This document shows, piece by piece, positions 6,639-46,982 of a stretch of DNA of 64,000 bases. This stretch comes from Escherichia phage EscoHU1. A model generated the notes under the pieces. The model made no database searches and was not told where the DNA came from. It saw nothing but the letters and a program-made list of their open reading frames with translations. Within the stretch, counting starts at the first letter, position 1. Each line of letters opens with the position of its first letter. Where the stretch lies: the sequence record NC_133119.1; one strand, written 5' to 3'. The position numbers and the translations under genes were made by a program.

Positions 6639-7680
6639 CGTTAAAGTGATGAATCAGCCAGTCTACTGCGTTTACTGCTTCGTCCATACGAACTTTGTAG
6701 TCCGGGGAGTCGATGTAAACAGTACGCCCTTCAGGGAACTGATTTGGAAATTCTTTCTTCATCTGCTCGAACAGTTCAGAAGTAATTGAACGATCGGAGT
6801 TAATACGTAAACCATCATCTACCCACTTGACAGTAGGCGCTAGAACAATTACTAAATCGTAATGTTCTTCTTTTGCAATTGCTGTAACCACAGGGTTCTT
6901 ACGATGTTCATAAAGTCTGTGGTAGAACTCAGTAATAAAAGCATTTGTATCCACAAACATGATCTTATTTGCAGTACGTTCTGCTTCAAATTCTAGCTCT
7001 TTGTGTCTGAACGCAATTTTACTATAATCTTCGCTGGTAAGCAGATTTTCGTTACCAACTAGATCAACTTCACAATACGTTCGGCCATATTCTTCTACCC
7101 ACGAAGTGTTGTATAGCTTCGCAAGGTATTTTGTTAAAGTAGTCTTTCCCGAGCTTTCAGTCCCAATGATTACAACCTTACGCACGTAATCTTTACGAAC
7201 TACGCTAGGAAGAAACTCCCAATACTTCATAAGATCATTACGAATCATTGTAGCTGAGATTGGAACACGAGTCCGATCAGAATCTACAATATAATGACCA
7301 AACTTCGGCAGATATTTCTTATATTCTGCATCATAGTCTAGTTCGCTAGAGAAAATGGTGATCTCAGGCAAATGTCCATAATTTTCATTAAGGATTCTAG
7401 CATATTCCGGCCAACCATTCGGATATTCAGGAATATCATCTTCAATAATGTACTCTACCGAAACGTGCTCAATATCCGCGTAAGTTTGTTCTAACCAACG
7501 AAGTCGATTCTTTAACTGTAATACTTCCTGATCACGTGTGTTCTGCTTATCCAGCCAACGATTATCATGACTAACTACAACAATAACTCGTTCACACATA
7601 GTTGCTGCTGTGTTTATTAGGTTAATATGACCACGCGTTAATGGTGCGAACTTACCAATTACTAGACCAGTCTTAATCAT
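6625..7680 (-). CDS. nadR: NadR-like bifunctional NMN adenylyltransferase / ribosylnicotinamide kinase
   Basis: N-terminal GKFAPLTRGH (nucleotidyltransferase HxGH-type motif) and central P-loop GTESSGKTT; start taken at MIKTGLVIGKF with RBS. Confidence 0.7.
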   Translation of the reverse strand: MIKTGLVIGKFAPLTRGHINLINTAATMCERVIVVVSHDNRWLDKQNTRDQEVLQLKNRLRWLEQTYADIEHVSVEYIIEDDIPEYPNGWPEYARILNENYGHLPEITIFSSELDYDAEYKKYLPKFGHYIVDSDRTRVPISATMIRNDLMKYWEFLPSVVRKDYVRKVVIIGTESSGKTTLTKYLAKLYNTSWVEEYGRTYCEVDLVGNENLLTSEDYSKIAFRHKELEFEAERTANKIMFVDTNAFITEFYHRLYEHRKNPVVTAIAKEEHYDLVIVLAPTVKWVDDGLRINSDRSITSELFEQMKKEFPNQFPEGRTVYIDSPDYKVRMDEAVNAVDWLIHHFNVGEF

Positions 7681-7739: not shown

Positions 7740-7855
7740 TCGAATTTTTTAACTTTTTAGAGGAAAATCGCAGGGCACTTAAGGGTAGCAGATGAGTGGT
7801 GAGGACCAGAAATTGTTACCCCAATAAAAATCCGGGGGCAATTTTTAAAGACCCC

Positions 7856-7884
7856 TTGACATTTTCGCTGGGATAGGATAAAGT
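7856..7884 (+). promoter_or_regulatory. sigma70-like promoter (TTGACA-17-TAAAGT) for the plus-strand islet
   Basis: TTGACATTTTCGCTG motif, nearly identical to the promoter at 37111. Confidence 0.4.
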
Positions 7885-7945
7885 ATATGTTATGGATGAG
7901 TGATCAAAGAGACACACATTTTCTATATACTAGGAGGTGTCAAAA

Positions 7946-8974
7946 ATGACAGAAGAAGTAGCTAAGAAACCTGAATCTCTAAGTGAAGTAGCAGCAGAAC
8001 TGCATCGTCACGAAGAATCAGACAAGAAAAAGTGGGAAAAGCTTAAAGCTCAAGAGCGAGCTGACGAGCATCATTATCATCATCACCATCATGAACACTA
8101 TGAGGAAGATGATGAAGACGACGAAGAAGAAGATGAACATGAACATCATGGTTATCACAAATATGGAGAAAGAAAAATGCAAGAACCAGTAAACGTATTC
8201 ACTAACGGCTTCCCTGGCCTGATGGGTGGTTACCCAGCTAACGCAGGTGCTTTCGGTGGAGAAGGTATGGGTCTATTCGGAGCTATCCTAATCGGTGCTC
8301 TATTAACAGGCGGATTCGGTGGATTTGGTGGATTTGGCGGACGTGGAGCAGGTGCTGTGGCTGAATTAACTGGTGTAGAAACTGTTCTGAGTAACCAAAA
8401 TACGTCAAGTATCCTATCTGCAATCAATACTGCTCGTACTGAAGCTAACCAGGGAACTGGTGCTGTTCTAAGCGCAGTAAATGGTGTAGGTGCTGCAGGT
8501 GCTGCTAGCACTCAGCAGATTCTGACTTCTCTGTACGGTACTGGTGCTAACCTGTCCAATCAGATCTGTCAGGAAACTCGTAGCGTTATTCAGGGTCAGT
8601 TTGACCTGTCTCGCCAGATCGATCAGTCCTTCGCGGCTAACCAGATCGCTCGTGCTCAAGACAAGTTTGATGCTGCTCAGATCGCTTTCCAGCAGACTAT
8701 TCAGACTAACAACCAGTTCGCTGCTGTAGCTGCACAGGCGTGCGCTAACCAGAACGCTCTGGAACGTCAGATCGCTGAATGTTGCTGTGAACTTCAGACT
8801 GCAATCGCTGGTGTAACTACTGCGCGTATTCAGGATGAATTAGATGAATGCCGTCTGCGTGAAGCAATCGCTGCAGGTAATGGTGCTAATGGTCAGGTAA
8901 TCAACCAAATCGCTGTAAGTCTTGGTGCTATCACTCAGACTCTAGCTGGTCTGCAGGCTAAACTGCCGGCTTAA
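7946..8974 (+). CDS. low-complexity protein: His/acidic N-terminus, glycine-zipper hydrophobic segment, Ala/Gln-rich C-terminus with Cys cluster
   Basis: ATG at 7946 with AGGAGG RBS (ORF track starts at GTG 7937); HHYHHHHHEHYEEDDEDDEEEDEHEHH, GLFGAILIGALLTGGFGGFGGFGG, C-terminal AECCCE; host-like codon usage. Confidence 0.55.
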   Translation: MTEEVAKKPESLSEVAAELHRHEESDKKKWEKLKAQERADEHHYHHHHHEHYEEDDEDDEEEDEHEHHGYHKYGERKMQEPVNVFTNGFPGLMGGYPANAGAFGGEGMGLFGAILIGALLTGGFGGFGGFGGRGAGAVAELTGVETVLSNQNTSSILSAINTARTEANQGTGAVLSAVNGVGAAGAASTQQILTSLYGTGANLSNQICQETRSVIQGQFDLSRQIDQSFAANQIARAQDKFDAAQIAFQQTIQTNNQFAAVAAQACANQNALERQIAECCCELQTAIAGVTTARIQDELDECRLREAIAAGNGANGQVINQIAVSLGAITQTLAGLQAKLPA

Positions 8975-8996
8975 TAATTAAGGGGAGGAGCCCATT

Positions 8997-9431
8997 ATGA
9001 GTAAATATGGTTTTGTGAACAACGGATTTAATCAACAAATGGGCTCCCAGCAGCCCGTTCCGGGTCTAGATAACCCTTACTTACAACAGTTGCAACAGCG
9101 TTTGGCAGAAGCACAAAATATGCAACAGCAGTTCCAACAACCTGGAACTGCTAACCCTATGCAGATGATGCAACAGCAAATGGTAGGGCAGCCGCAAATG
9201 CCTCAACAAATGCAGCCTCAGATGCAGCAAATGCAACAAATGCCTCAACAGCAGCAAGTTCAACAACTCCAACATCCGCAGGTATCTGCGGAAGGACAGG
9301 CTGTTCTAGCCCTTTTCGAAGACTTCGCTAAAACAGAGGATGGGAAGCAACTTGTATCGCTTATGGGTAAGTTTAACAGCTTCTGTCAGAGTCAGGTTGC
9401 AAAAGCTCAGAATGGGGGTAATAACTCCTAA
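8997..9431 (+). CDS. Gln/Met-rich low-complexity protein
   Basis: 144 aa, GGAGG RBS, long Q/M/P-rich tract (QQQMVGQPQMPQQMQPQMQQMQQMPQQQQ). Confidence 0.5.
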   Translation: MSKYGFVNNGFNQQMGSQQPVPGLDNPYLQQLQQRLAEAQNMQQQFQQPGTANPMQMMQQQMVGQPQMPQQMQPQMQQMQQMPQQQQVQQLQHPQVSAEGQAVLALFEDFAKTEDGKQLVSLMGKFNSFCQSQVAKAQNGGNNS

Positions 9432-9440
9432 GGAGAAATT

Positions 9441-9635
9441 ATGTGTTGTAGAAAACCTGTGTCATGCTGTCCTATGCCTGTAGCACGTTGTTGCTCTCCA
9501 GCAATGTTTACACAAATACCGGTGTTCAATCCCTTTGCCTTTAAGCCTACTCTTATCCTGCCCCCTAGAGTAGATTTTCAGTCAAGATTGGTCTCCCGTA
9601 TGGGTGGTTGCTGTACACCGAGAGTATGGTTCTAA
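9441..9635 (+). CDS. small Cys-rich protein
   Basis: 64 aa ORF with GGAGA RBS, CC pairs at both ends (MCCRKPVSCCP...GGCCTP). Confidence 0.4.
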   Translation: MCCRKPVSCCPMPVARCCSPAMFTQIPVFNPFAFKPTLILPPRVDFQSRLVSRMGGCCTPRVWF

Positions 9636-9647
9636 ACCAAAAAACAA

Positions 9648-9682
9648 AAGCCCCTACGTCTTTTGACTAGGGGCTTTCTTGT
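9648..9682. terminator. bidirectional intrinsic terminator
   Basis: GC hairpin AGCCCCTA...TAGGGGCT flanked by A-run upstream and T-run downstream, between convergent genes. Confidence 0.55.
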
Positions 9683-10213
9683 TTATAAATTTAAGTAATC
9701 TAGAGAAGGTATCACACCATCAAATTCTTCTAGGATAGCAAACTCTCCAGCAAATTCTTTCCTCATTTCGTTAGCTTTTGCTATCGCACTTCCAAGATCT
9801 TCGTAACCAAAAGATCCTCCTGATCTTTTAATACCTTCCTTATCTCTTATTAATACTCTCCATTTTTGCCTGTTCTTCTCCCAGCATACATTAGCATACC
9901 CAGACTTAGACTTTAATTTCTTATTTCTTTGATTTTGAGAATCTGTAGATTCTCTTAGATTGTCCCATGCATTATTATTTCTAATCCTATCTTTATGATC
10001 GACCATGCTAGGTAGGTATCCTTTTACATAAAGGAATGCTAGAACATGGGCTAAGTACATTTTTCCAGAGATCTGAATTCTGATATATCCATCAGATGTT
10101 AGGCTTCCCGCAATGCTGCCGGCCTTCTTGTTTCCTCTACTAACCTTATATGTAAACAATCCAGTTTCTTGATCATAGTCAAAAAGCTCTTTCAATTTTT
10201 CTTGAGTTAACAT
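9683..10213 (-). CDS. HNH homing endonuclease with AP2-type DNA-binding domain
   Basis: 176 aa; N-terminal HNH_3-like region (YIRIQISGKMYLAHVLAF...VDHKDRIRNNNAWDNLRE) and C-terminal AP2-like region (GYANVCWEKNRQKWRVLIRDKEG). Confidence 0.7.
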   Translation of the reverse strand: MLTQEKLKELFDYDQETGLFTYKVSRGNKKAGSIAGSLTSDGYIRIQISGKMYLAHVLAFLYVKGYLPSMVDHKDRIRNNNAWDNLRESTDSQNQRNKKLKSKSGYANVCWEKNRQKWRVLIRDKEGIKRSGGSFGYEDLGSAIAKANEMRKEFAGEFAILEEFDGVIPSLDYLNL

Positions 10214-10229
10214 AAGTTCCTTAAATACA

Positions 10230-10287: not shown

Positions 10288-11235
10288 TTACTTATTACGC
10301 ATATCCATGATCATCTGGCCATCGTAACCAGTTCCCACTACTGTTTGCGGTACACCACCTTGGTATTTTTCAGCACGAAGCATTTCAACTTCCAGCTGCT
10401 TCCAACGAATCATTTCAGGAGTAATGGTACGTTGCAGAGCGGCGTTAGCTTCAGCTTCTTTCTTAGCTGCGTACAGTTTAGCATCTGCGTCACGTTCGTT
10501 AGCTACTGCCATGTTTTCACGAGCAGAGCGATCTGCTTCAGCTTGCTTAACTTTCTGCTGTGCTTCTTGTTCAACACGAGCCAGTTCAGCTTTTGCTGCG
10601 TTAACTTGTTCTTCACGAACTTTTGTGTTCTGTACCTGTTCCATAATTACCGGTGGCAGAGTAATATCCTGAAGGAATACTTGCTTAACGGTGTAACCAT
10701 AAGGGCGCGCATACTCTTCTACTTCTTGCTGAATAGCAGTTTGCAGTTGAGCCTGAATCTTAGCGTCGAACAGATCTTGTGCTTTTGGTACAGACTTACC
10801 AAACTCACGAATCGTAGATAGCATCTTCTCTTCAACGTATTTGTTAAGAGCTTGATCCTGAGTACCTGCGTTAACACGGTTCATAGGAGCTTTAGCTCCA
10901 TCAAACTGTAACATAACGGTAATGTCAACAGTAGACTTAAACTTATCCTGGCTAGGAACCTGAAGTTTATCCAGTTTCATAGAAATATCTTTCGTACTAA
11001 AAGTATCAAAAGAGGCTAATGGGTTAACAATATGGAAGCCTGGCAATACAGGATTCGGGCTAACTTTACCCAGGAAAGTTTGAGTCTTAACAGTACCATC
11101 CTGAACAACTGTATAGGAATTGAGAGCCAGAATAAGAGCACCAAGACCAACAGCAGCACCAACACCCCAACGTTTAATAGTACGAATTACTTTTTGCTCA
11201 GAAGTCAGTTCTTTAGTGTTTTTAGTAAACATATA
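10288..11235 (-). CDS. SPFH/band-7 (HflC/HflK/prohibitin-like) membrane protein
   Basis: N-terminal transmembrane helix then band-7-like domain and long coiled-coil tail; start taken at MFTKNTKEL because the longer ORF would overlap tRNA-Arg. Confidence 0.6.
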   Translation of the reverse strand, partial: YMFTKNTKELTSEQKVIRTIKRWGVGAAVGLGALILALNSYTVVQDGTVKTQTFLGKVSPNPVLPGFHIVNPLASFDTFSTKDISMKLDKLQVPSQDKFKSTVDITVMLQFDGAKAPMNRVNAGTQDQALNKYVEEKMLSTIREFGKSVPKAQDLFDAKIQAQLQTAIQQEVEEYARPYGYTVKQVFLQDITLPPVIMEQVQNTKVREEQVNAAKAELARVEQEAQQKVKQAEADRSARENMAVANERDADAKLYAAKKEAEANAALQRTITPEMIRWKQLEVEMLRAEKYQGGVPQTVVGTGYDGQMIMDMRNK

Positions 11236-11265
11236 TTTCCTTTGTTTAGTTACAGTTAATAAAAT

Positions 11266-11340
11266 TGGCCGAGGTGACAGGATTCGAACCTGCATAAAGG
11301 AATTTAGAAGACTCCTGCCTATCCCTTAGACTACACCCCG
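11266..11340 (-). tRNA. tRNA-Arg (anticodon UCU)
   Basis: Acceptor CGGGGTG/CACCTCG, anticodon stem GGAGT/ATTCC with loop CTTCTAA, T-arm GCAGG-TTCGAAT-CCTGT, CCA. Confidence 0.55.
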
Positions 11341-14131: not shown

Positions 14132-14770
14132 TTACTCTACTTCGATGAAAGTAGAGGCGTTGGACTCAGACAGAACAAAGTCAACGTTAGTTGCAAAGTC
14201 CTGGTATTCTTCGTCGTGTTGCTTGATCAGCTTTTCTAGCTCCAGCGGATCGATCAGGAACGGAGTGTTCTTGAGTTCCAGCAGGTTAAGCTGCATCTTA
14301 ACTTCATCCTCGGAAGTCTTCTTGTCGCGGGTAGCCATGGTATCCTGCAGACGCTCATACTTGGCGTCAAACTGAGCCTTCTGAGTGTTAAACTTAACAG
14401 TAGCAGCATGGAACTGCTTACGCATGTTAGCCAGCAACTGAGCTTTGAGTTCCATAGAACGCTTAGCTTCGATTGCTTCCGCAACAGTCATAGAGCGAGA
14501 ACCGATCTCTACAACAGTTTCAGCATTGCTCTTGATCAGCGCTGCTTTCAGATGATCACGCTGGGTCATCATATCCAGCAGAGACTGGAAATCAGTTTTA
14601 ATACGAGTAGACAGAGCATCTACTTCGATTGCAGCACCAACGACAACTTGATTCTTGTCTTTACCTTCACCAACAGCAATCAAAAGCTGTTGTTCAGTAG
14701 CTTTACGGATTTTAGCTTCCAGAGACTTGATAGTTGCCAGAGCACGAGTTTTAGAGATACGAGTAGACAT
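14132..14770 (-). CDS. hypothetical helical protein
   Basis: 212 aa ORF with host-like codon usage suggesting high expression. Confidence 0.5.
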   Translation of the reverse strand: MSTRISKTRALATIKSLEAKIRKATEQQLLIAVGEGKDKNQVVVGAAIEVDALSTRIKTDFQSLLDMMTQRDHLKAALIKSNAETVVEIGSRSMTVAEAIEAKRSMELKAQLLANMRKQFHAATVKFNTQKAQFDAKYERLQDTMATRDKKTSEDEVKMQLNLLELKNTPFLIDPLELEKLIKQHDEEYQDFATNVDFVLSESNASTFIEVE

Positions 14771-16340: not shown

Positions 16341-16856
16341 TTACTTCGCTTTACGCTTACGAGCAGGTTTAGCGGATTTACGCTCAGAAGCACCAGTAAA
16401 CTTAATACCGATACCATAGCACAGAGCGCGAACGTTGTCACGGCTATACTCTACACCGAAAATATTCGGTTTAACGGAGCCAAACTGTCCACGGGATTCA
16501 CGCATTACGTCAGCCATTGGCTTACGCTTCTGATTGACTGCTTTTTCATAGTCTTTCAGAGCCATACCGTTGCGGGCGAACATCTCAGCACCGCCGTTAA
16601 AGCTCAGAGTTACTGGTACAGACTTATGACCTTCACCTTTTATGAACACAACCTGCTTAGCAGTTGCGCGAGTAGAGTTCTTGGCCTTCGGCTTCTGGCG
16701 AACCGGAGCCGGAGACTTCAGGGCAGTCTGAGCCTGAGCATCAGTAGGATGCTTACGCAGATGACGTTCCAGACGAGTCTTACGATTGGCTTCGGTCTGA
16801 GTGAAAGTTTTAACTGCCGGAGCTGCCTGAGTTTTTGCGTTTTTCTGCTTAGCCAT
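16341..16856 (-). CDS. basic protein, putative nucleic-acid binding
   Basis: 171 aa, Lys/Arg/Ala-rich termini. Confidence 0.45.
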   Translation of the reverse strand: MAKQKNAKTQAAPAVKTFTQTEANRKTRLERHLRKHPTDAQAQTALKSPAPVRQKPKAKNSTRATAKQVVFIKGEGHKSVPVTLSFNGGAEMFARNGMALKDYEKAVNQKRKPMADVMRESRGQFGSVKPNIFGVEYSRDNVRALCYGIGIKFTGASERKSAKPARKRKAK

Positions 16857-34707: not shown

Positions 34708-35118
34708 ATGACTACTCCAACTCAGTGGACTGATGAACTGTTCGAAAAAATGTCTTCCGACTACGTTGCTCGTATGGAGCAATTCCCAGAAGATGAGCGT
34801 CCGGGCGTTAGCATGGAAATTGTTAGCGAAATTGCTCAGGAAAATGGTGTAACTCCGAACGGTTTCCGTATGAAGCTGACCAAAGCAGGTCTGTATATCA
34901 AGAAAGCTGCTGGCTCTACTTCTAAATCAAGCGCATCTACTGGAGAAAAAGCTTCTGGTGGTTCTCGTACTTCCAAAGCTCAGGCTCACTCCGATCTTCG
35001 CTCTGCATTCTCTGATGCTGGCTTAGCACCGGACTTCCTGGACGACACGATCATCGACAAGCTGACCGGTAAAGCAGCTGCTCATCTGGCAGAAGCTATC
35101 AGAGCTATTACTAAGTAA
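34708..35118 (+). CDS. hypothetical protein
   Basis: 136 aa, host-like codon usage. Confidence 0.5.
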   Translation: MTTPTQWTDELFEKMSSDYVARMEQFPEDERPGVSMEIVSEIAQENGVTPNGFRMKLTKAGLYIKKAAGSTSKSSASTGEKASGGSRTSKAQAHSDLRSAFSDAGLAPDFLDDTIIDKLTGKAAAHLAEAIRAITK

Positions 35119-37262: not shown

Positions 37263-38042
37263 ATGAAAATCGAAATTCCAACACAATGTCCCTCTTGTGG
37301 TTCTAAGCTAGATCTTGTCAACGGGCAATTATTCTGTAGGAATAAGTCCAACTGTCCAGCGCAATCAAGTAAGTTAATCGAGAACTTCTGCACAAAAATG
37401 AAGTTAAAGGGCTTTGGCCCGAAAACTATTGAGAAGCTGGAACTGACTAAGATCTCAGAACTGTTTTACCTGACCGAAGAAGATTTGGTCGGAGCTGTGG
37501 GTAGCAAGGTTGCCGCTAAGTTGATTAGCGAGTTAAATACTAAGGTTCGCGGAGACATTGACTTTGGTTCGGTTCTCGGTTCTTTAGGAATTCCTCTTAT
37601 TGGAGAGGTTGCAGCAAAGAAACTGTCCCAAAATTGCACTAGCTTCCACGATGTGAAGGCTGACGGCAAGGCTGGAGAAAATTACAAAACCTGGCTAAAT
37701 TCCCCACAAGGCAAGGATGTTATTGAATTACCATGGAAATTCTCAACTGGTATTCGAGGTACTAAAGCTGATATCATCATTACGGATGATTTAGTTGCCC
37801 AGCCAAATGGAATCACGATCTGTATTACCGGATCTTTGCAAGATTTTGCAAATCGAACGGATGCAACAAACTATTTAGAAAGTCTAGGATATACGGTTAA
37901 GAAATCCGTTACCAAAGACGTCAAATACCTAATCTGTGAGGATGAATCAAAACGTTCTTCCTCATCTTATAAGAAAGCCGAAACGAATGGGATAGAAATC
38001 CTGTCGATTAAAGAACTATTGGAGAAAAATAATAATGTCTAA
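37263..38042 (+). CDS. NAD-dependent DNA ligase, C-terminal zinc-finger/HhH/BRCT portion
   Basis: C4 zinc finger CPSCGSKLD...CRNKSNCP, helix-hairpin-helix-like GFGPKTIEKL, C-terminal BRCT-like region. Confidence 0.65.
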   Translation: MKIEIPTQCPSCGSKLDLVNGQLFCRNKSNCPAQSSKLIENFCTKMKLKGFGPKTIEKLELTKISELFYLTEEDLVGAVGSKVAAKLISELNTKVRGDIDFGSVLGSLGIPLIGEVAAKKLSQNCTSFHDVKADGKAGENYKTWLNSPQGKDVIELPWKFSTGIRGTKADIIITDDLVAQPNGITICITGSLQDFANRTDATNYLESLGYTVKKSVTKDVKYLICEDESKRSSSSYKKAETNGIEILSIKELLEKNNNV

Positions 38043-38802
38043 ACTGAACTGGAACGTAGAAGGTGTAACCGAGTCTCTGAAAGCAAAAGCCACTGCTCTG
38101 GGTGTTGCTGTAATCTCTCAAGAACAAGTAGCTGCTATCGCTGCTGAACTGGCTACCGAGACTGGTAAAGACGTTACCGCTCGCTCTGTTGGCTCTAAGC
38201 TGCGTAAAGAAGGTTTCGAAGTACAGAAAGCTAACGAAGTACAGAAATCCCCGTGGACTCCTGAGCAGGAAGCTGAACTAGTTGATTTCCTGAACGCTCA
38301 TGCTGGTCAGTATACTTACGCTGAAATCGCTGCTGCTGTAGCTGGTGGTCAGTTCGGTGCTAAGCAGGTACAGGGTAAGATCCTGAGTCTGGAAATGACC
38401 ACTTCTGTTAAGCCAACTGAAAAAGCTGCTGCTGTTCGTTCCTTCACTCCGGACGAAGAAACTGACTTCGTTAATCAGGTTGTTGCTGGTGCTACTATTG
38501 AAGCTATCGCTGCTCACTTCGGTCGCAATATTAAGCAGATCCGTGGTAAAGCTCTGAGCCTGCTTCGTGAAGGTCGTATCGCTGCTATGCCGGTACAGGA
38601 AACTTCAAGTGCTAAAACTCGTGAAGATCTGTTAGAAGGTCTGGATCTGGCTAACATGACTGTTGCTGAGATCGCTGAGAAAACTGGTAAGTCTGAGCGC
38701 GGTGTTAAGTCTATGCTGTCTCGTCGTGGTCTGGTTGCTAAGGACTATGATGGTGCCGCTAAGCGTGCTAAACTGGATGCAAAAGCTGCGGCTGCTGAAT
38801 AA
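38035..38802 (+). CDS. hypothetical protein with three to four internal HTH-like repeats
   Basis: Repeated about 60-aa unit (..AEIAAA..G....KQ..GK.LSL..); strongly biased host-like codon usage. Confidence 0.45.
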   Translation: MSKLNWNVEGVTESLKAKATALGVAVISQEQVAAIAAELATETGKDVTARSVGSKLRKEGFEVQKANEVQKSPWTPEQEAELVDFLNAHAGQYTYAEIAAAVAGGQFGAKQVQGKILSLEMTTSVKPTEKAAAVRSFTPDEETDFVNQVVAGATIEAIAAHFGRNIKQIRGKALSLLREGRIAAMPVQETSSAKTREDLLEGLDLANMTVAEIAEKTGKSERGVKSMLSRRGLVAKDYDGAAKRAKLDAKAAAAE

Positions 38803-45853: not shown

Positions 45854-46216
45854 ATGAAATTCTTTGATTACGAGAGAATTTACCTCTTAGCTAGAGGAAA
45901 CTCCGACCTGATTGTCAAGCTATTTAATAGAATGCTTGCAGAGCCTGATGCTCACCAGTTACTGGTCGGTTCTTCATTCATCTTGAATGAATCAACTATT
46001 GTTGATAACCCTTACAAATTGTCTAATAGACAACTGGCAGAATATCTAGGAATTCTAAGTCTACGAAATTATGCCGAATATAAGTTTACAAACGATCCGA
46101 GTTTGGACATGCAATATGTCCCCATATGGATACCACGTTCTGTAATCGACACTAACCCACTAATTGCAATCAATAAATCGAAGATAATCTTTAAAGAGGA
46201 AATAAAATATGGCTAA
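45854..46216 (+). CDS. hypothetical protein
   Basis: 120 aa ORF. Confidence 0.45.
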   Translation: MKFFDYERIYLLARGNSDLIVKLFNRMLAEPDAHQLLVGSSFILNESTIVDNPYKLSNRQLAEYLGILSLRNYAEYKFTNDPSLDMQYVPIWIPRSVIDTNPLIAINKSKIIFKEEIKYG

Positions 46217-46982
46217 GTCTTGGGGCGAAACTACTGGCGGTTCTAACGATAAAATCGACTTCCTGAAATTCAACAACGGTGTAACTCGTGTTCGTATCGT
46301 TTCTGGTGTTCTTCCACGTTATGTCTACTGGCTGACTAACAAAGATGGTAATGCAGCTCCGTTTGAGTGCCTGCGTTTCAACCGTACTAAAGAGAGCTTC
46401 GTTCGCGGTAAAGCTGACCCGATTCACGAAATGGGCTTCTTCGAGAAAGAGCTGGACAAAGATGGTAATCGTGTTCCGCTGAAACCGAAGAAAAACTACA
46501 TCGCTTTCGTTATCGACCGTTCTGATAACAAACTGAAAGTTATGGAAGTTAAAGCTACGATCCTGAAAGGCATCCAGTCTATCATGAAGCAGCTGAAACT
46601 GTCCGACCCGTTCGATATCGATATTTCTATCGAAAAGAAAGGTAAAGGCTTCGATACTGAGTACGATGTACAGCAGATCGCAGCAATGCAGTTCCAGATG
46701 GCTCTGAAAGATCCTACTAGCGCAGAAGCTAAACTGCACGCCGCAGATGCCGATATCCTCGGTGAAGCTATGTGTGATGATACTGGTGAGTTCATCAAGT
46801 TTGAAAAAGTTCCTTCTCTGGAAGAAACCTACCCGGTTCCGTCCTACGAAGAGCAGAAAGAAGCTATTCTCGCCTTCATGGAAGGTCGTGAGAAGCAAGA
46901 CGGCGGTGACGCTAAGTCTGGTGGTGATGCTGGTTCTCAGAAAGGCATCGACGCTGAAGCTGCTAGCGATCTGGACGACTAA
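46209..46982 (+). CDS. hypothetical replication/recombination protein with acidic C-terminal tail (D11-position)
   Basis: 257 aa, host-like codon usage, Gly/Asp-rich acidic tail (DGGDAKSGGDAGS...SDLDD); function not assigned. Confidence 0.45.
   Translation: MAKSWGETTGGSNDKIDFLKFNNGVTRVRIVSGVLPRYVYWLTNKDGNAAPFECLRFNRTKESFVRGKADPIHEMGFFEKELDKDGNRVPLKPKKNYIAFVIDRSDNKLKVMEVKATILKGIQSIMKQLKLSDPFDIDISIEKKGKGFDTEYDVQQIAAMQFQMALKDPTSAEAKLHAADADILGEAMCDDTGEFIKFEKVPSLEETYPVPSYEEQKEAILAFMEGREKQDGGDAKSGGDAGSQKGIDAEAASDLDD

What the first reader, a model, noticed from the sequence alone, without database searches (positions are those of the whole stretch)
7856..9682. Plus-strand islet of three low-complexity proteins inside a minus-strand region
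Three co-oriented genes with their own TTGACA promoter and a bidirectional terminator run against the surrounding transcription. Gene 1 combines a poly-His/acidic head (HHYHHHHHEHYEEDDEDDEEEDEHEHH), a glycine-zipper hydrophobic segment (GLFGAILIGALLTGGFGGFGGFGG) and an Ala/Gln-rich helical tail ending in a CCC cluster. Gene 2 is a Gln/Met-rich prion-like protein. Gene 3 is a 64-aa peptide with CC pairs at both ends. Codon usage is host-like, suggesting high expression. The composition suggests metal binding and membrane or condensate association, but no function can be assigned from sequence.
Basis: seen in the sequence. Interest (0 to 1): 0.7.

Follow-up and report, generated by a model that had tools for sequence, protein, structure and literature searches.

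The report
Optional three-gene cassette of T5-like phages
This is a real, self-contained, optional three-gene unit (phage T5 genes T5.077-T5.079) with its own promoter and terminator; its main protein belongs to a very large phage-only family also found in crAss-like gut phages, but its function is still unknown and it is not needed for growth in the laboratory.

Summary
The window is a T5-like phage (gene 1 is 100% identical to EscoHU1_076). The islet is the T5.077/T5.078/T5.079 cassette, already annotated in T5 with promoter P12 and a bidirectional terminator, and all three products are listed as hypothetical. It behaves like a moron. It has a conserved TTGACA-17-TAAAGT promoter and a strong hairpin terminator, and its GC content is higher than that of its neighbours. 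It is cleanly absent from close relatives (vaffelhjerte, Bas33) and present in about half of T5-like records. The same three genes also occur in the unrelated Pseudomonas phage KPP23. Gene 1 has a hydrophobic Gly-rich segment, a GGFGGFGG motif, about 200 residues of polar helices and a nearly invariant CCC. It is homologous (hhalign probability 98.5%) to the crAss-like phage genes annotated 'spike protein/viral fiber'. The superfamily has at least 955 clusters at 50% identity. The poly-His head and the Gln/Met 'prion-like' tract are hypervariable and specific to some lineages. No characterised family matches in Pfam, NCBIfam, PADLOC, PDB or Foldseek. CRISPRi-ART knock-down of each gene in T5 had no fitness effect. 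My best guess, at low confidence, is an abundant early protein complex associated with the membrane that serves an accessory role at the cell envelope or in phage-host conflict. The cassette is a well-defined unknown with no explained mechanism.

The parts
7791..10218 (.). Segment present in this phage and absent from the cassette-free relative Salmonella phage vaffelhjerte. It comprises the three-gene islet plus an adjacent HNH endonuclease gene.
   Evidence: blastn of the vaffelhjerte SPFH-NadR intergenic region aligns to the window up to 7790 (97%) and again from 10219. The SPFH and NadR genes are adjacent there. Bas33 also lacks the cassette.
7856..7884 (+). Sigma-70-type promoter TTGACA-17 nt-TAAAGT, equivalent to T5 promoter P12, with an A/T-rich stretch upstream.
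   Evidence: 10 of 12 matches; annotated as P12 in T5; conserved in T5-like and distant lineages.
7885..7945 (+). Leader / 5' UTR with the ribosome-binding site AGGAGG at 7933-7938. It is essentially invariant among 17 T5-like islets.
   Evidence: sequence; identity 1.00 over 7900-7959; no significant RNA fold (z -1.08); no Rfam match.
7946..8974 (+). Gene 1, 342 aa, the T5.077 homologue (PHROG 8119). It has an N-terminal charged helix, a variable His/acidic tract, a hydrophobic Gly-rich segment with GGFGGFGG, and about 200 aa of polar helices containing CCC.
   Evidence: E 3e-176; 100% to EscoHU1_076; Fop 0.72.
8069..8149 (+). His/acidic low-complexity tract (residues 42-68), specific to some lineages and hypervariable.
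   Evidence: identity 0.61-0.62.
8270..8341 (+). Hydrophobic Gly-rich segment GLFGAILIGALLTGGFGGFGGFGG (residues 109-132), a candidate membrane anchor.
   Evidence: KD19 1.72; G123, G126 and G128 invariant and F127 nearly so in both the T5-type and crAss-type proteins; nucleotide identity 0.96.
8780..8788 (+). Invariant CCC motif (residues 279-281) within AECCCE.
   Evidence: invariant in alignment A2; present in 134 of 140 full-length superfamily members.
8997..9431 (+). Gene 2, 144 aa, the T5.078 homologue (PHROG 7894). It has a conserved N-terminal helix (YLQQLQQRL.EAQ), a variable Gln/Met/Pro linker and a conserved C-terminal helical hairpin (EGQAVLALFE.FAKTEDGKQLV..MGKFNSFCQS).
   Evidence: E 2e-66; pLDDT 86-90 for residues 98-139; dN/dS 0.12.
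9441..9635 (+). Gene 3, 64 aa, the T5.079 homologue. It is a Cys/Pro-rich peptide starting MCC, with no signal peptide or lipobox.
   Evidence: An ORF starting with MCC follows gene 2 in all four lineages examined (T5-like, L027, L028, KPP23). It is nearly identical among T5-likes.
9642..9684 (.). Bidirectional intrinsic terminator: a GC-rich hairpin flanked by an A-run and a T-run.
   Evidence: the T5 counterpart is annotated as an efficient bidirectional terminator.

Best explanation
Shown:
- The islet is a moron-like accessory transcription unit, the T5.077-T5.078-T5.079 cassette.
- It is inserted between genes that are adjacent in related phages.
- It is transcribed from its own host-type (sigma-70) promoter, in the direction opposite to its neighbours, and it ends at a bidirectional terminator.
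- The three genes travel together as a unit between unrelated phages.

Inferred working model:
- Gene 1 is made in large amounts early in infection.
- It attaches to or inserts into the inner membrane through its short hydrophobic Gly-rich segment and the adjoining GGFGGFGG motif.
- It oligomerises through its roughly 200-residue polar helical domain, in which the invariant CCC forms an inter-subunit thiol, disulfide or metal site.
- The two small products join this assembly. Gene 2 is a helical hairpin on a flexible Gln-rich tether. Gene 3 is a Cys/Pro-rich peptide with a conserved N-terminal Cys-Cys.

Most likely role: an envelope-level accessory function in phage-phage or phage-host conflict. 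Examples are exclusion of superinfecting phages or protection against defences that act on the membrane. This would matter in natural hosts but not in defence-poor laboratory E. coli. The functional assignment is a guess based on architecture and context.
For: Moron properties:
- The promoter and terminator are conserved.
- The cassette is cleanly absent from vaffelhjerte and Bas33 but present in Bas32, Bas28, Seabear and T5.
- 218 T5-like records carry gene 1, against about 441 records with NrdA at least 80% identical.
- GC is 0.46-0.47, against 0.35-0.42 for the flanking genes.

Unit mobility: the same gene 1, gene 2 and MCC-peptide order occurs in Pseudomonas phage KPP23 and in two distant T5-like lineages.

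The genes are real: dN/dS is 0.42, 0.12 and 0.34. Ribosome-binding sites or tightly spaced start codons are present.

Abundance: gene 1 has Fop 0.72, ranking 5th of 61.

Membrane and oligomer model:
- KD19 is 1.72 at residues 109-127.
- This segment is the best-conserved part of gene 1.
- AlphaFold2 predicts an all-helical chain with a 125-residue helix.
- Helical periodicity is about 3.6-3.7 residues.
- CCC is present in 134 of 140 family members, at a fixed distance of about 116 aa from the hydrophobic segment.

Dispensability and context:
- CRISPRi-ART scores T5.077, T5.078 and T5.079 as 'Not Fit' (PMC11879866 supplementary files 8 and 16).
- The neighbouring gene T5.076 is the anti-retron gene Rad. 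It lies in the spontaneously deletable 'Anti-Defense Island' of the tRNA region.
- The other neighbour is an SPFH membrane protein.
Against: - The hydrophobic segment is only borderline for a transmembrane helix across the family (mean KD19 1.42; only 32% reach 1.6). It has almost no flanking Lys or Arg, so neither membrane spanning nor topology is established.
- Cys counts show no even-number bias, which gives no support for periplasmic disulfides.
- Genes 2 and 3 have no export signals. If the helical domain of gene 1 were periplasmic, they could only meet its N-terminal head.
- No physical interaction among the three products has been shown.
- No PADLOC or other anti-defence homology was found.
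- Azam et al. found anti-retron activity only in fragments 6-8 of the island, not in fragment 9. Whether fragment 9 carries this cassette is not stated.
- Early timing is inferred from the promoter type and was not measured.
- In crAss-like phages the homologue is a late (stop-codon-recoded) gene.
Confidence: 0.35

Rival explanations
1. A lysis-associated membrane fusogen or disruptor, a functional analogue of spanins. Gene 1 would be anchored by a fusion-peptide-like segment and use long polar helices to bring the two membranes together or to destabilise the envelope at lysis. In crAss-like phages the family would supply the so far unidentified outer-membrane step.
For: - The architecture recalls class I fusion proteins. 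GLFGAI is identical to the N-terminus of the influenza HA2 fusion peptide as I remember it, and it is followed by Gln/Asn-rich helices.
- The only PDB profile hits are HA2 and coronavirus S2 HR1 (E 0.03-0.1, not significant).
- crAss genome annotators labelled the homologues 'spike protein/glycoprotein'.
- In four crAss-like genomes the gene lies one to three genes after a holin or endolysin gene.
- It carries recoded stop codons typical of late and lysis genes.
- crAss-type proteins end in aromatic Gly/Tyr/Trp tails that could engage a second membrane.
Against: - T5-like phages already have a holin, an endolysin and two-component spanins elsewhere.
- The cassette has a sigma-70 early-type promoter.
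- Knock-down had no fitness effect.
- Gene 3 has no signal peptide or lipobox, so it is not an o-spanin.
- There is no PHROG or Pfam match to Rz or Rz1.
- Other family contexts are unrelated to lysis: next to RecT, YqaJ and HNH genes in Bacteroides phage C3_41T2LP, and beside a tail gene in a virus assigned to a Methanomassiliicoccales host.
Confidence: 0.15
2. One reading: a metal-binding, redox-active or condensate-forming set of low-complexity proteins in the cytoplasm. The His/acidic head and the Cys clusters would bind metal. The Gly-Phe motif and the Gln-rich tract would drive phase separation.
For: - CCC is nearly invariant.
- The N-terminal MCC and a second CC pair are conserved in gene 3.
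- Many crAss-type members end in CGCGC-like tails.
- The GGFGGFGG motif is conserved.
- No export signals are present on genes 2 and 3.
- There is no positive-inside signal around the hydrophobic segment.
Against: - The His tract and the Gln/Met tract are the least conserved parts and are missing from many homologues.
- Gene 3 has 12.5% Cys, well below my recollection of metallothioneins.
- No match was found to any metal-binding family.
- The strongly conserved hydrophobic core LFGAILIGALL points to a lipid or protein core rather than a soluble condensate.
Confidence: 0.15
3. A virion component, either a fibre or an ejected internal protein, as suggested by the crAss annotations 'outer capsid protein/viral fiber'.
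For: - Annotation labels and the position at the head of the structural gene block in crAss-like genomes, just upstream of DUF7841 and ring-protein genes.
- Late stop-codon recoding.
- Long helices and a low-charge Gln/Asn/Ala composition like that of proteins that pass through narrow channels (my own comparison, not tested).
Against: - In T5-likes the cassette is in the early region behind an early-type promoter.
- It is optional among close relatives that share the same virion genes.
- It is dispensable.
- A profile search of the PDB at E up to 1 listed only haemagglutinin, coronavirus spike, designed coiled-coil and beta-amyloid-like chains. By my recollection the PDB includes the crAss001 virion chains.
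- By my recollection of the T5 virion proteome (Zivanovic et al. 2014; the paper could not be read here), T5.077 is not a structural protein.
Confidence: 0.05
4. A selfish or neutral passenger, kept by linkage and horizontal transfer, with no benefit to the phage.
For: - Patchy distribution: about half of T5-like records.
- No fitness effect on knock-down.
- An HNH homing endonuclease gene lies immediately next to the cassette in this genome.
Against: - Purifying selection acts on all three genes.
- Strong codon optimisation of gene 1.
- The promoter and leader are invariant.
- The same three-gene order is retained across very distant phages.
- The superfamily has at least 955 clusters at 50% identity.
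Confidence: 0.05

Closest known systems
Phage T5 genes T5.077, T5.078 and T5.079 with promoter P12 and the bidirectional terminator (NC_005859 38064-39720); PHROG 8119 and PHROG 7894
   Same: Direct orthologues. The order, sizes, promoter, terminator and position in the tRNA/early region are the same. Gene 1 is 77% identical to T5 at the protein level.
   Different: This phage has a longer poly-His/acidic tract. NadR/PnuC genes lie on one side of the cassette instead of the Rad-like gene, and an extra HNH endonuclease gene lies on the other. All T5 entries are 'hypothetical protein', so this match names the cassette but does not explain it.
Morons of tailed phages (an independent promoter-gene-terminator unit inserted between two genes that are adjacent in relatives; Hendrix/Juhala concept, from my own knowledge)
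   Same: It has its own promoter and terminator. It is cleanly present or absent between conserved neighbours. Its base composition differs from the flanks, and it is dispensable.
   Different: Classical morons are in temperate phages and are expressed from the prophage. This one is in a strictly lytic phage, carries three genes, and is transcribed against the surrounding early genes.
crAss-like phage genes annotated 'spike protein/glycoprotein' or 'outer capsid protein/viral fiber' (PHROG 16490)
   Same: Homologous to gene 1: hhalign probability 98.5%, E 2e-15 over 207 columns, with reciprocal PHROG cross-hits. Both share the hydrophobic segment, GGFGGFGG, the polar helices and the CCC.
   Different: crAss-type proteins lack the roughly 80-residue charged N-terminal head. 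They carry a Pro-rich C-terminal tail that is also Gly/Tyr-rich or Cys-rich. They are late (recoded) genes, and T5.078/T5.079-like partners do not follow them. Their function is also unknown. The annotation labels probably reflect coiled-coil-type similarity only.
Two-component spanins (lambda Rz/Rz1 type)
   Same: A larger protein with one N-proximal hydrophobic segment followed by long helices that contain Cys, plus a small Pro- and Cys-rich partner.
   Different: There is no sequence match. The helices are uncharged rather than highly charged. The small partner has no lipoprotein signal. The cassette is not in the lysis cassette, and T5-likes have genuine spanins.
Class I viral fusion proteins (influenza HA2, coronavirus S2)
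   Same: A Gly-rich hydrophobic peptide (GLFGAI...) followed by long Gln/Asn-rich helices. These are the only PDB profile hits.
   Different: The E-values are not significant (0.03-0.1). There is no second heptad repeat or C-terminal membrane anchor. The helical periodicity is 3.6-3.7 rather than 3.5. The resemblance is one of composition and architecture, not of membership.

Membership tests
T5.077 family (PHROG 8119) | Full-length sequence match to the family profile | tested here: met
   E 3.3e-176 over residues 4-345, matching profile positions 1-332 of 332; 77% identity to T5.
T5.078 family (PHROG 7894) | Full-length sequence match to the family profile | tested here: met
   E 1.9e-66 over residues 1-144, matching profile positions 1-139 of 139; 118 homologues, all from T5-like or related contigs.
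Moron (independent accessory transcription unit) | Own promoter upstream and own terminator downstream | tested here: met
   Conserved TTGACA-17-TAAAGT; hairpin at -22.8 kcal/mol; both are annotated in T5. Activity was not measured here.
Moron (independent accessory transcription unit) | Flanking genes are adjacent in related genomes | tested here: met
   SPFH and NadR are adjacent in vaffelhjerte. SPFH and the Rad-like gene are adjacent in Bas33.
Moron (independent accessory transcription unit) | Base composition differs from the surroundings | tested here: met
   GC is 0.46-0.47 for the three genes, against 0.38 (NadR), 0.35 (HNH) and 0.42 (SPFH).
Two-component spanin | o-spanin: small outer-membrane lipoprotein with a signal peptide and a lipobox Cys | tested here: not met
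   Gene 3 begins MCCRKPVSCC, with no hydrophobic signal region or lipobox.
Two-component spanin | i-spanin: N-terminal transmembrane domain plus a charged periplasmic coiled coil; located in the lysis cassette | tested here: not met
   The hydrophobic segment starts at residue 109 after a charged head. The helical domain is nearly uncharged (10 K+R and 16 D+E in 207 aa). There is no Rz-type PHROG or Pfam hit. T5-like lysis genes are elsewhere.
Class I viral fusion protein | Significant similarity to a fusion subunit; two heptad-repeat regions and a C-terminal membrane anchor | tested here: not met
   The best PDB profile hits have E 0.034-0.1. There is no 3.5-residue periodicity and no second hydrophobic segment.
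Integral membrane protein (single-pass) | A hydrophobic stretch long enough to span the bilayer, with a positive-inside charge bias | tested here: inconclusive
   KD19 is 1.72 in this protein, but the family mean is 1.42 (32% reach 1.6). Flanking K+R counts are 0.29 before and 0.66 after.
Prion-like / Q-rich domain protein (gene 2) | A Gln/Asn-rich low-complexity domain conserved as a functional part of the protein | tested here: not met
   The Gln/Met tract is the variable part (identity 0.71). It is reduced to a few residues in distant homologues, whereas the flanking helices are invariant.
Metal-binding His-rich or Cys-rich protein | Conserved metal ligands; demonstrated metal content | not testable with these tools
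   The His tract is not conserved. CCC and MCC are conserved. Metal content requires biochemistry.
Known anti-defence or defence proteins | Match to a curated defence or anti-defence model, or a demonstrated activity | tested here: not met
   No significant PADLOC hit. The location next to Rad and the 'Anti-Defense Island' is contextual only.

The most novel reading that the evidence does not exclude
The T5.077 / PHROG 16490 superfamily is an unrecognised, very widespread class of phage membrane-active proteins built like a minimal fusion protein. Members have a fusion-peptide-like Gly-rich segment, long polar helices and an invariant CCC inter-subunit site. In crAss-like phages the family would provide the missing outer-membrane or envelope-disruption step of lysis. 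T5-like and KPP23-like phages would have captured a split three-gene version as a mobile early cassette for a different envelope task, such as exclusion or counter-defence.
Probability: 0.12. Interest if true: 0.75.

Novelty: new member of a known kind. Interest (0 to 1): 0.42.

Why it matters
T5 is a classic model phage and crAss-like phages are the most abundant viruses of the human gut. This analysis links an optional T5 cassette to a crAss-like gene family of at least 955 sequence clusters, with a shared architecture and an almost invariant triple cysteine. No member has a known function. The T5 version is genetically tractable: E. coli is the host, natural relatives with and without the cassette exist (Bas32 and Bas33), and knock-down data already exist. 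It therefore offers a practical way to find out what this large family of gut-phage proteins does. If the cassette proves to act in exclusion, counter-defence or lysis, it would add a new protein type to that field. If it does not, the result is simply a well-delimited accessory unit.

Tried and rejected
- Pfam, NCBIfam and PADLOC scans of all three proteins gave nothing above threshold. The weak ZIP-transporter hit of gene 1 (E 0.037) comes from the His-rich tract.
- PDB sequence-profile searches gave only non-significant haemagglutinin and spike hits for gene 1 and nothing for gene 2.
- AlphaFold2 of gene 1 with 16 sequences gave pLDDT 53 and pTM 0.20. That is too poor for a fold search, so none was run on it.
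- AlphaFold2 of gene 2 gave a confident C-terminal helical hairpin only. Foldseek against the PDB found no match.
- I tested whether gene 3 is a split-off equivalent of the Pro-rich, Cys-rich C-terminal tail of crAss-type proteins. phmmer gave no significant matches (best E 0.04), so this stays a speculation.
- A canonical coiled coil is rejected. Hydrophobic periodicity peaks at 3.6-3.7 residues, not 3.5.
- A regulatory RNA in the invariant leader is not supported. The fold z-score is -1.08 and there is no Rfam hit.
- Host range from the genome collection is unreliable. Hits were on metagenome-assembled contigs that look like mis-binned crAss-like phages, with the same gene order or with fragmented ORFs compatible with stop-codon recoding. 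They say nothing about Gram-positive hosts.
- Expression data from the Bas33 transcriptome/proteome paper could not be used, because Bas33 lacks the cassette.
- phiR2-01 virion and lysate proteomics are not informative. No Yersinia phage record appears among the records that carry gene 1.
- The T5 virion proteome paper could not be accessed.
Full report
**What the window is.** The window comes from a T5-like phage (Demerecviridae, Markadamsvirinae). Gene 1 of the islet is 100% identical to hypothetical protein EscoHU1_076 of Escherichia phage EscoHU1. The islet DNA is 95% identical to Salmonella phage STG2 and about 85% identical to T5-type phages. The surrounding genes are the typical tRNA and early region: 14 tRNA genes, PnuC, NadR, an SPFH membrane protein and NrdA.

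**Checking the observation.**
- Three + strand ORFs lie at 7946-8974, 8997-9431 and 9441-9635. Every other substantial ORF from 979 to 24468 is on the - strand.
- The start of gene 1 is ATG 7946, behind AGGAGG, and this matches the deposited 342-aa protein.
- The promoter-like site TTGACA-17-TAAAGT at 7856-7884 is the best in the region. A consensus scan alone is no better than chance, with 4 sites found against 7.3 expected.
- The site is conserved across 17 T5-like islets (0.97-1.00 identity, together with the leader). It is also conserved in two lineages whose proteins are only 41-45% identical.
- The hairpin at 9642-9684 folds strongly on both strands.
- In phage T5 the same unit is annotated as T5.077, T5.078 and T5.079 with 'promoter P12' and an 'efficient bidirectional rho-independent transcription terminator'.
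The CCC lies 61 residues before the end, not at the end.
- Only gene 1 has host-optimal codon usage. Its Fop is 0.72, against a window mean of 0.515 (sd 0.10). Genes 2 and 3 have 0.49 and 0.39.

**The unit is optional and mobile.**
- The Epseptimavirus vaffelhjerte has the SPFH and NadR genes next to each other. It aligns to the window up to 7790 and again from 10219, so 7791-10218 is a clean insertion or deletion. That segment holds the islet plus an HNH endonuclease gene.
- The Tequintavirus Bas33 also lacks the cassette, whereas Bas32, Bas28, Seabear and T5 have it.
- Gene 1 is found in 218 T5-like records, against about 441 records whose NrdA is at least 80% identical. Both counts include GenBank/RefSeq duplicates.
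- The islet is richer in G+C than its flanks.
- Own promoter, own terminator, conserved neighbours that are adjacent elsewhere, and deviant composition are the defining properties of a moron.
- The same three genes, in the same order, occur in the unrelated 63-kb Pseudomonas phage KPP23. There the small third gene is annotated in the wrong frame. They also occur in two distant T5-like lineages from metagenomes.
- The three genes are therefore inherited and transferred as one unit, which argues that they work together.

**The proteins.**

Gene 1:
- It starts with a charged N-terminal helix, followed by a hypervariable acidic or His-rich tract.
- Next comes a conserved motif (QEPVNVF) and a short, strongly conserved hydrophobic Gly-rich segment (Kyte-Doolittle 19-mer 1.72) running into GGFGGFGG.
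- The rest is about 200 residues predicted as long helices, nearly uncharged and rich in Ala, Gln and Asn, with an invariant AECCCE.
- Hydrophobic periodicity is 3.6-3.7 residues, as in an amphipathic helix, rather than the 3.5 of a canonical coiled coil.

Gene 2:
- It has a conserved N-terminal helix and a conserved C-terminal helical hairpin (pLDDT 86-90).
- These are joined by a Gln/Met/Pro linker whose length varies from a few residues to about 50.

Gene 3:
- It always begins MCC and has at least one further CC pair. It is Pro-rich and has no export signal.

All three genes are under purifying selection. The promoter, leader, hydrophobic segment, gene 2 C-terminal domain and gene 3 are the most conserved.

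**A large superfamily.**
- Weak hits of gene 1 (E about 1e-4) led to 290-323-aa proteins of crAss-like phages.
- Profile-profile comparison confirms homology: probability 98.5%, E 2e-15, 207 aligned columns. PHROG cross-hits agree.
- These are the genes that crAss genome annotators labelled 'spike protein/glycoprotein' or 'outer capsid protein/viral fiber'.
- An exhaustive profile search of 1.84 billion representatives found 955 clusters at E up to 1e-3 and 440 at up to 1e-10. In the 150 best hits, complete proteins are almost all 280-340 aa and shorter entries look like fragments. None of the 26 sequences I read carries an enzymatic domain.
- CCC is present in 134 of 140 full-length members, about 116 residues after the hydrophobic segment.
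- crAss-type members lack the charged head. They carry a C-terminal Pro-rich motif and then a Gly/Tyr-rich or Cys-rich tail.
- In two crAss-like genomes the gene contains an in-frame stop codon exactly where the family has Gln. It is therefore a stop-codon-recoded gene, and by inference a late one.
- It often lies just after holin or endolysin genes and before structural genes. Other phages place it among recombination genes or beside a tail gene.

**What is known experimentally.**
- No paper in the library mentions T5.077-079 in its main text.
- The CRISPRi-ART study lists all three as 'unknown function' and 'Not Fit', meaning that knock-down does not reduce T5 fitness on laboratory E. coli. 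It annotates the neighbour T5.076 as the anti-retron gene.
- Azam et al. describe an approximately 8-kb, spontaneously deletable 'Anti-Defense Island' in this tRNA region that contains Rad. The cassette lies next to it.
- T5-like phages have a canonical holin, endolysin and two-component spanins elsewhere.

**Interpretation.** The following points are firm:
- The genes are real.
- The unit is a moron-like, optional, horizontally mobile cassette.
- Gene 1 is codon-optimised and belongs to a huge family of phage proteins with no known function.
- The poly-His and prion-like features are lineage-specific decoration.

The mechanism can only be inferred. I favour an abundant early assembly associated with the membrane. 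Gene 1 would be held at the inner membrane by its hydrophobic Gly-rich segment and would oligomerise through its helices and the CCC site. Genes 2 and 3 would act as partners. The assembly would serve an accessory role at the envelope in phage-phage or phage-host conflict (confidence about 0.35). Weaknesses of this model:
- The hydrophobic segment is only borderline for a membrane span across the family, and it lacks flanking positive charges.
- The small partners have no export signals.
- Nothing links the cassette directly to defence.

The rivals are:
- a spanin-like or fusogen-like lysis function, which is attractive for the crAss-type members but poorly fitted to T5;
- a cytoplasmic thiol/metal or condensate function;
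- a virion component;
- a neutral passenger.

**Verdict.** The cassette is already annotated in T5 but remains unexplained. Its interest lies less in the low-complexity tracts than in the link to a very large crAss-like phage family, and in the fact that T5 offers a tractable system for finding that family's function.

Noticed in passing
window 9683-10213 (- strand): A 176-aa ORF ends right at the islet terminator. I take it to be an HNH-type homing endonuclease from its sequence and from the T5 hegA analogy, but it had no NCBIfam hit. It is part of the segment missing in vaffelhjerte and is absent at this position in T5, Seabear and Bas32. It is therefore a separate mobile insertion beside the cassette.
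   Followed up: partly
L006 (Pseudomonas phage KPP23, AB910392) 6900-7082 versus annotated ORF072 at 6902-7096: The GenBank annotation of KPP23 calls ORF072 in a different frame. The frame that starts MCCNQPVPQCC is the homologue of T5.079, so the deposited ORF072 is probably mis-called.
   Followed up: partly
window 7885-7959: The leader and first codons of gene 1 are 100% identical among 17 T5-like islets whose coding regions differ by 10-40%. No stable RNA fold or Rfam family explains this.
   Followed up: partly
window 9441-9635: Gene 3 has unusually low synonymous divergence (dS 0.10, against 0.30-0.54 for genes 2 and 1). A promoter-like site on the opposite strand lies inside it at 9465-9438. 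Constraint at the nucleotide level, or a recent sweep, is possible.
   Followed up: no
L003 8001-8873 and L031 5752-6729 (crAss-like phages): The homologues of gene 1 contain an in-frame stop codon at positions where the family consensus has Gln. This indicates stop-to-Gln recoding in these phages.
   Followed up: partly
protein P0276: In one superfamily member a DnaJ-type J-domain and the start of a Gly/Phe-rich region replace the hydrophobic segment. The join lies in the Gly/Phe-rich stretch. It may be a true fusion or an assembly chimera. P0184 similarly starts with a region that resembles the DNA-binding protein encoded upstream in L004.
   Followed up: no
window 10288-11295 (- strand) and tRNA-Arg at 11266-11340: The longest ORF for the SPFH/band-7 membrane protein overlaps the tRNA-Arg gene. 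Homologues align from residue 17-19, so the real start is probably the internal Met near 11241. Close homologues of this SPFH protein (about 80% identity) also occur in T4-like Klebsiella and Escherichia phages such as RB16.
   Followed up: no
window 38035-38802, 34708-35118, 46209-46982, 14132-14770, 16341-16856: A small set of early-region genes shares the very high host-optimal codon usage of gene 1 (Fop 0.72-0.84, against a mean of 0.515). They may mark the most abundantly made early proteins.
   Followed up: no
window 7818-7842: A hairpin CCCC-AATAAAAATCC-GGGGG followed by a T-run lies between the divergent NadR and islet promoters. It is conserved in T5-likes. Its role is unknown.
   Followed up: no
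several GenBank records (e.g. ESCO30, STWB21, Seabear): The gene 2 homologue is annotated as 'cAMP-dependent protein kinase catalytic subunit'. No kinase domain is detectable. This looks like an annotation error that spread through the Gln-rich tract.
   Followed up: partly
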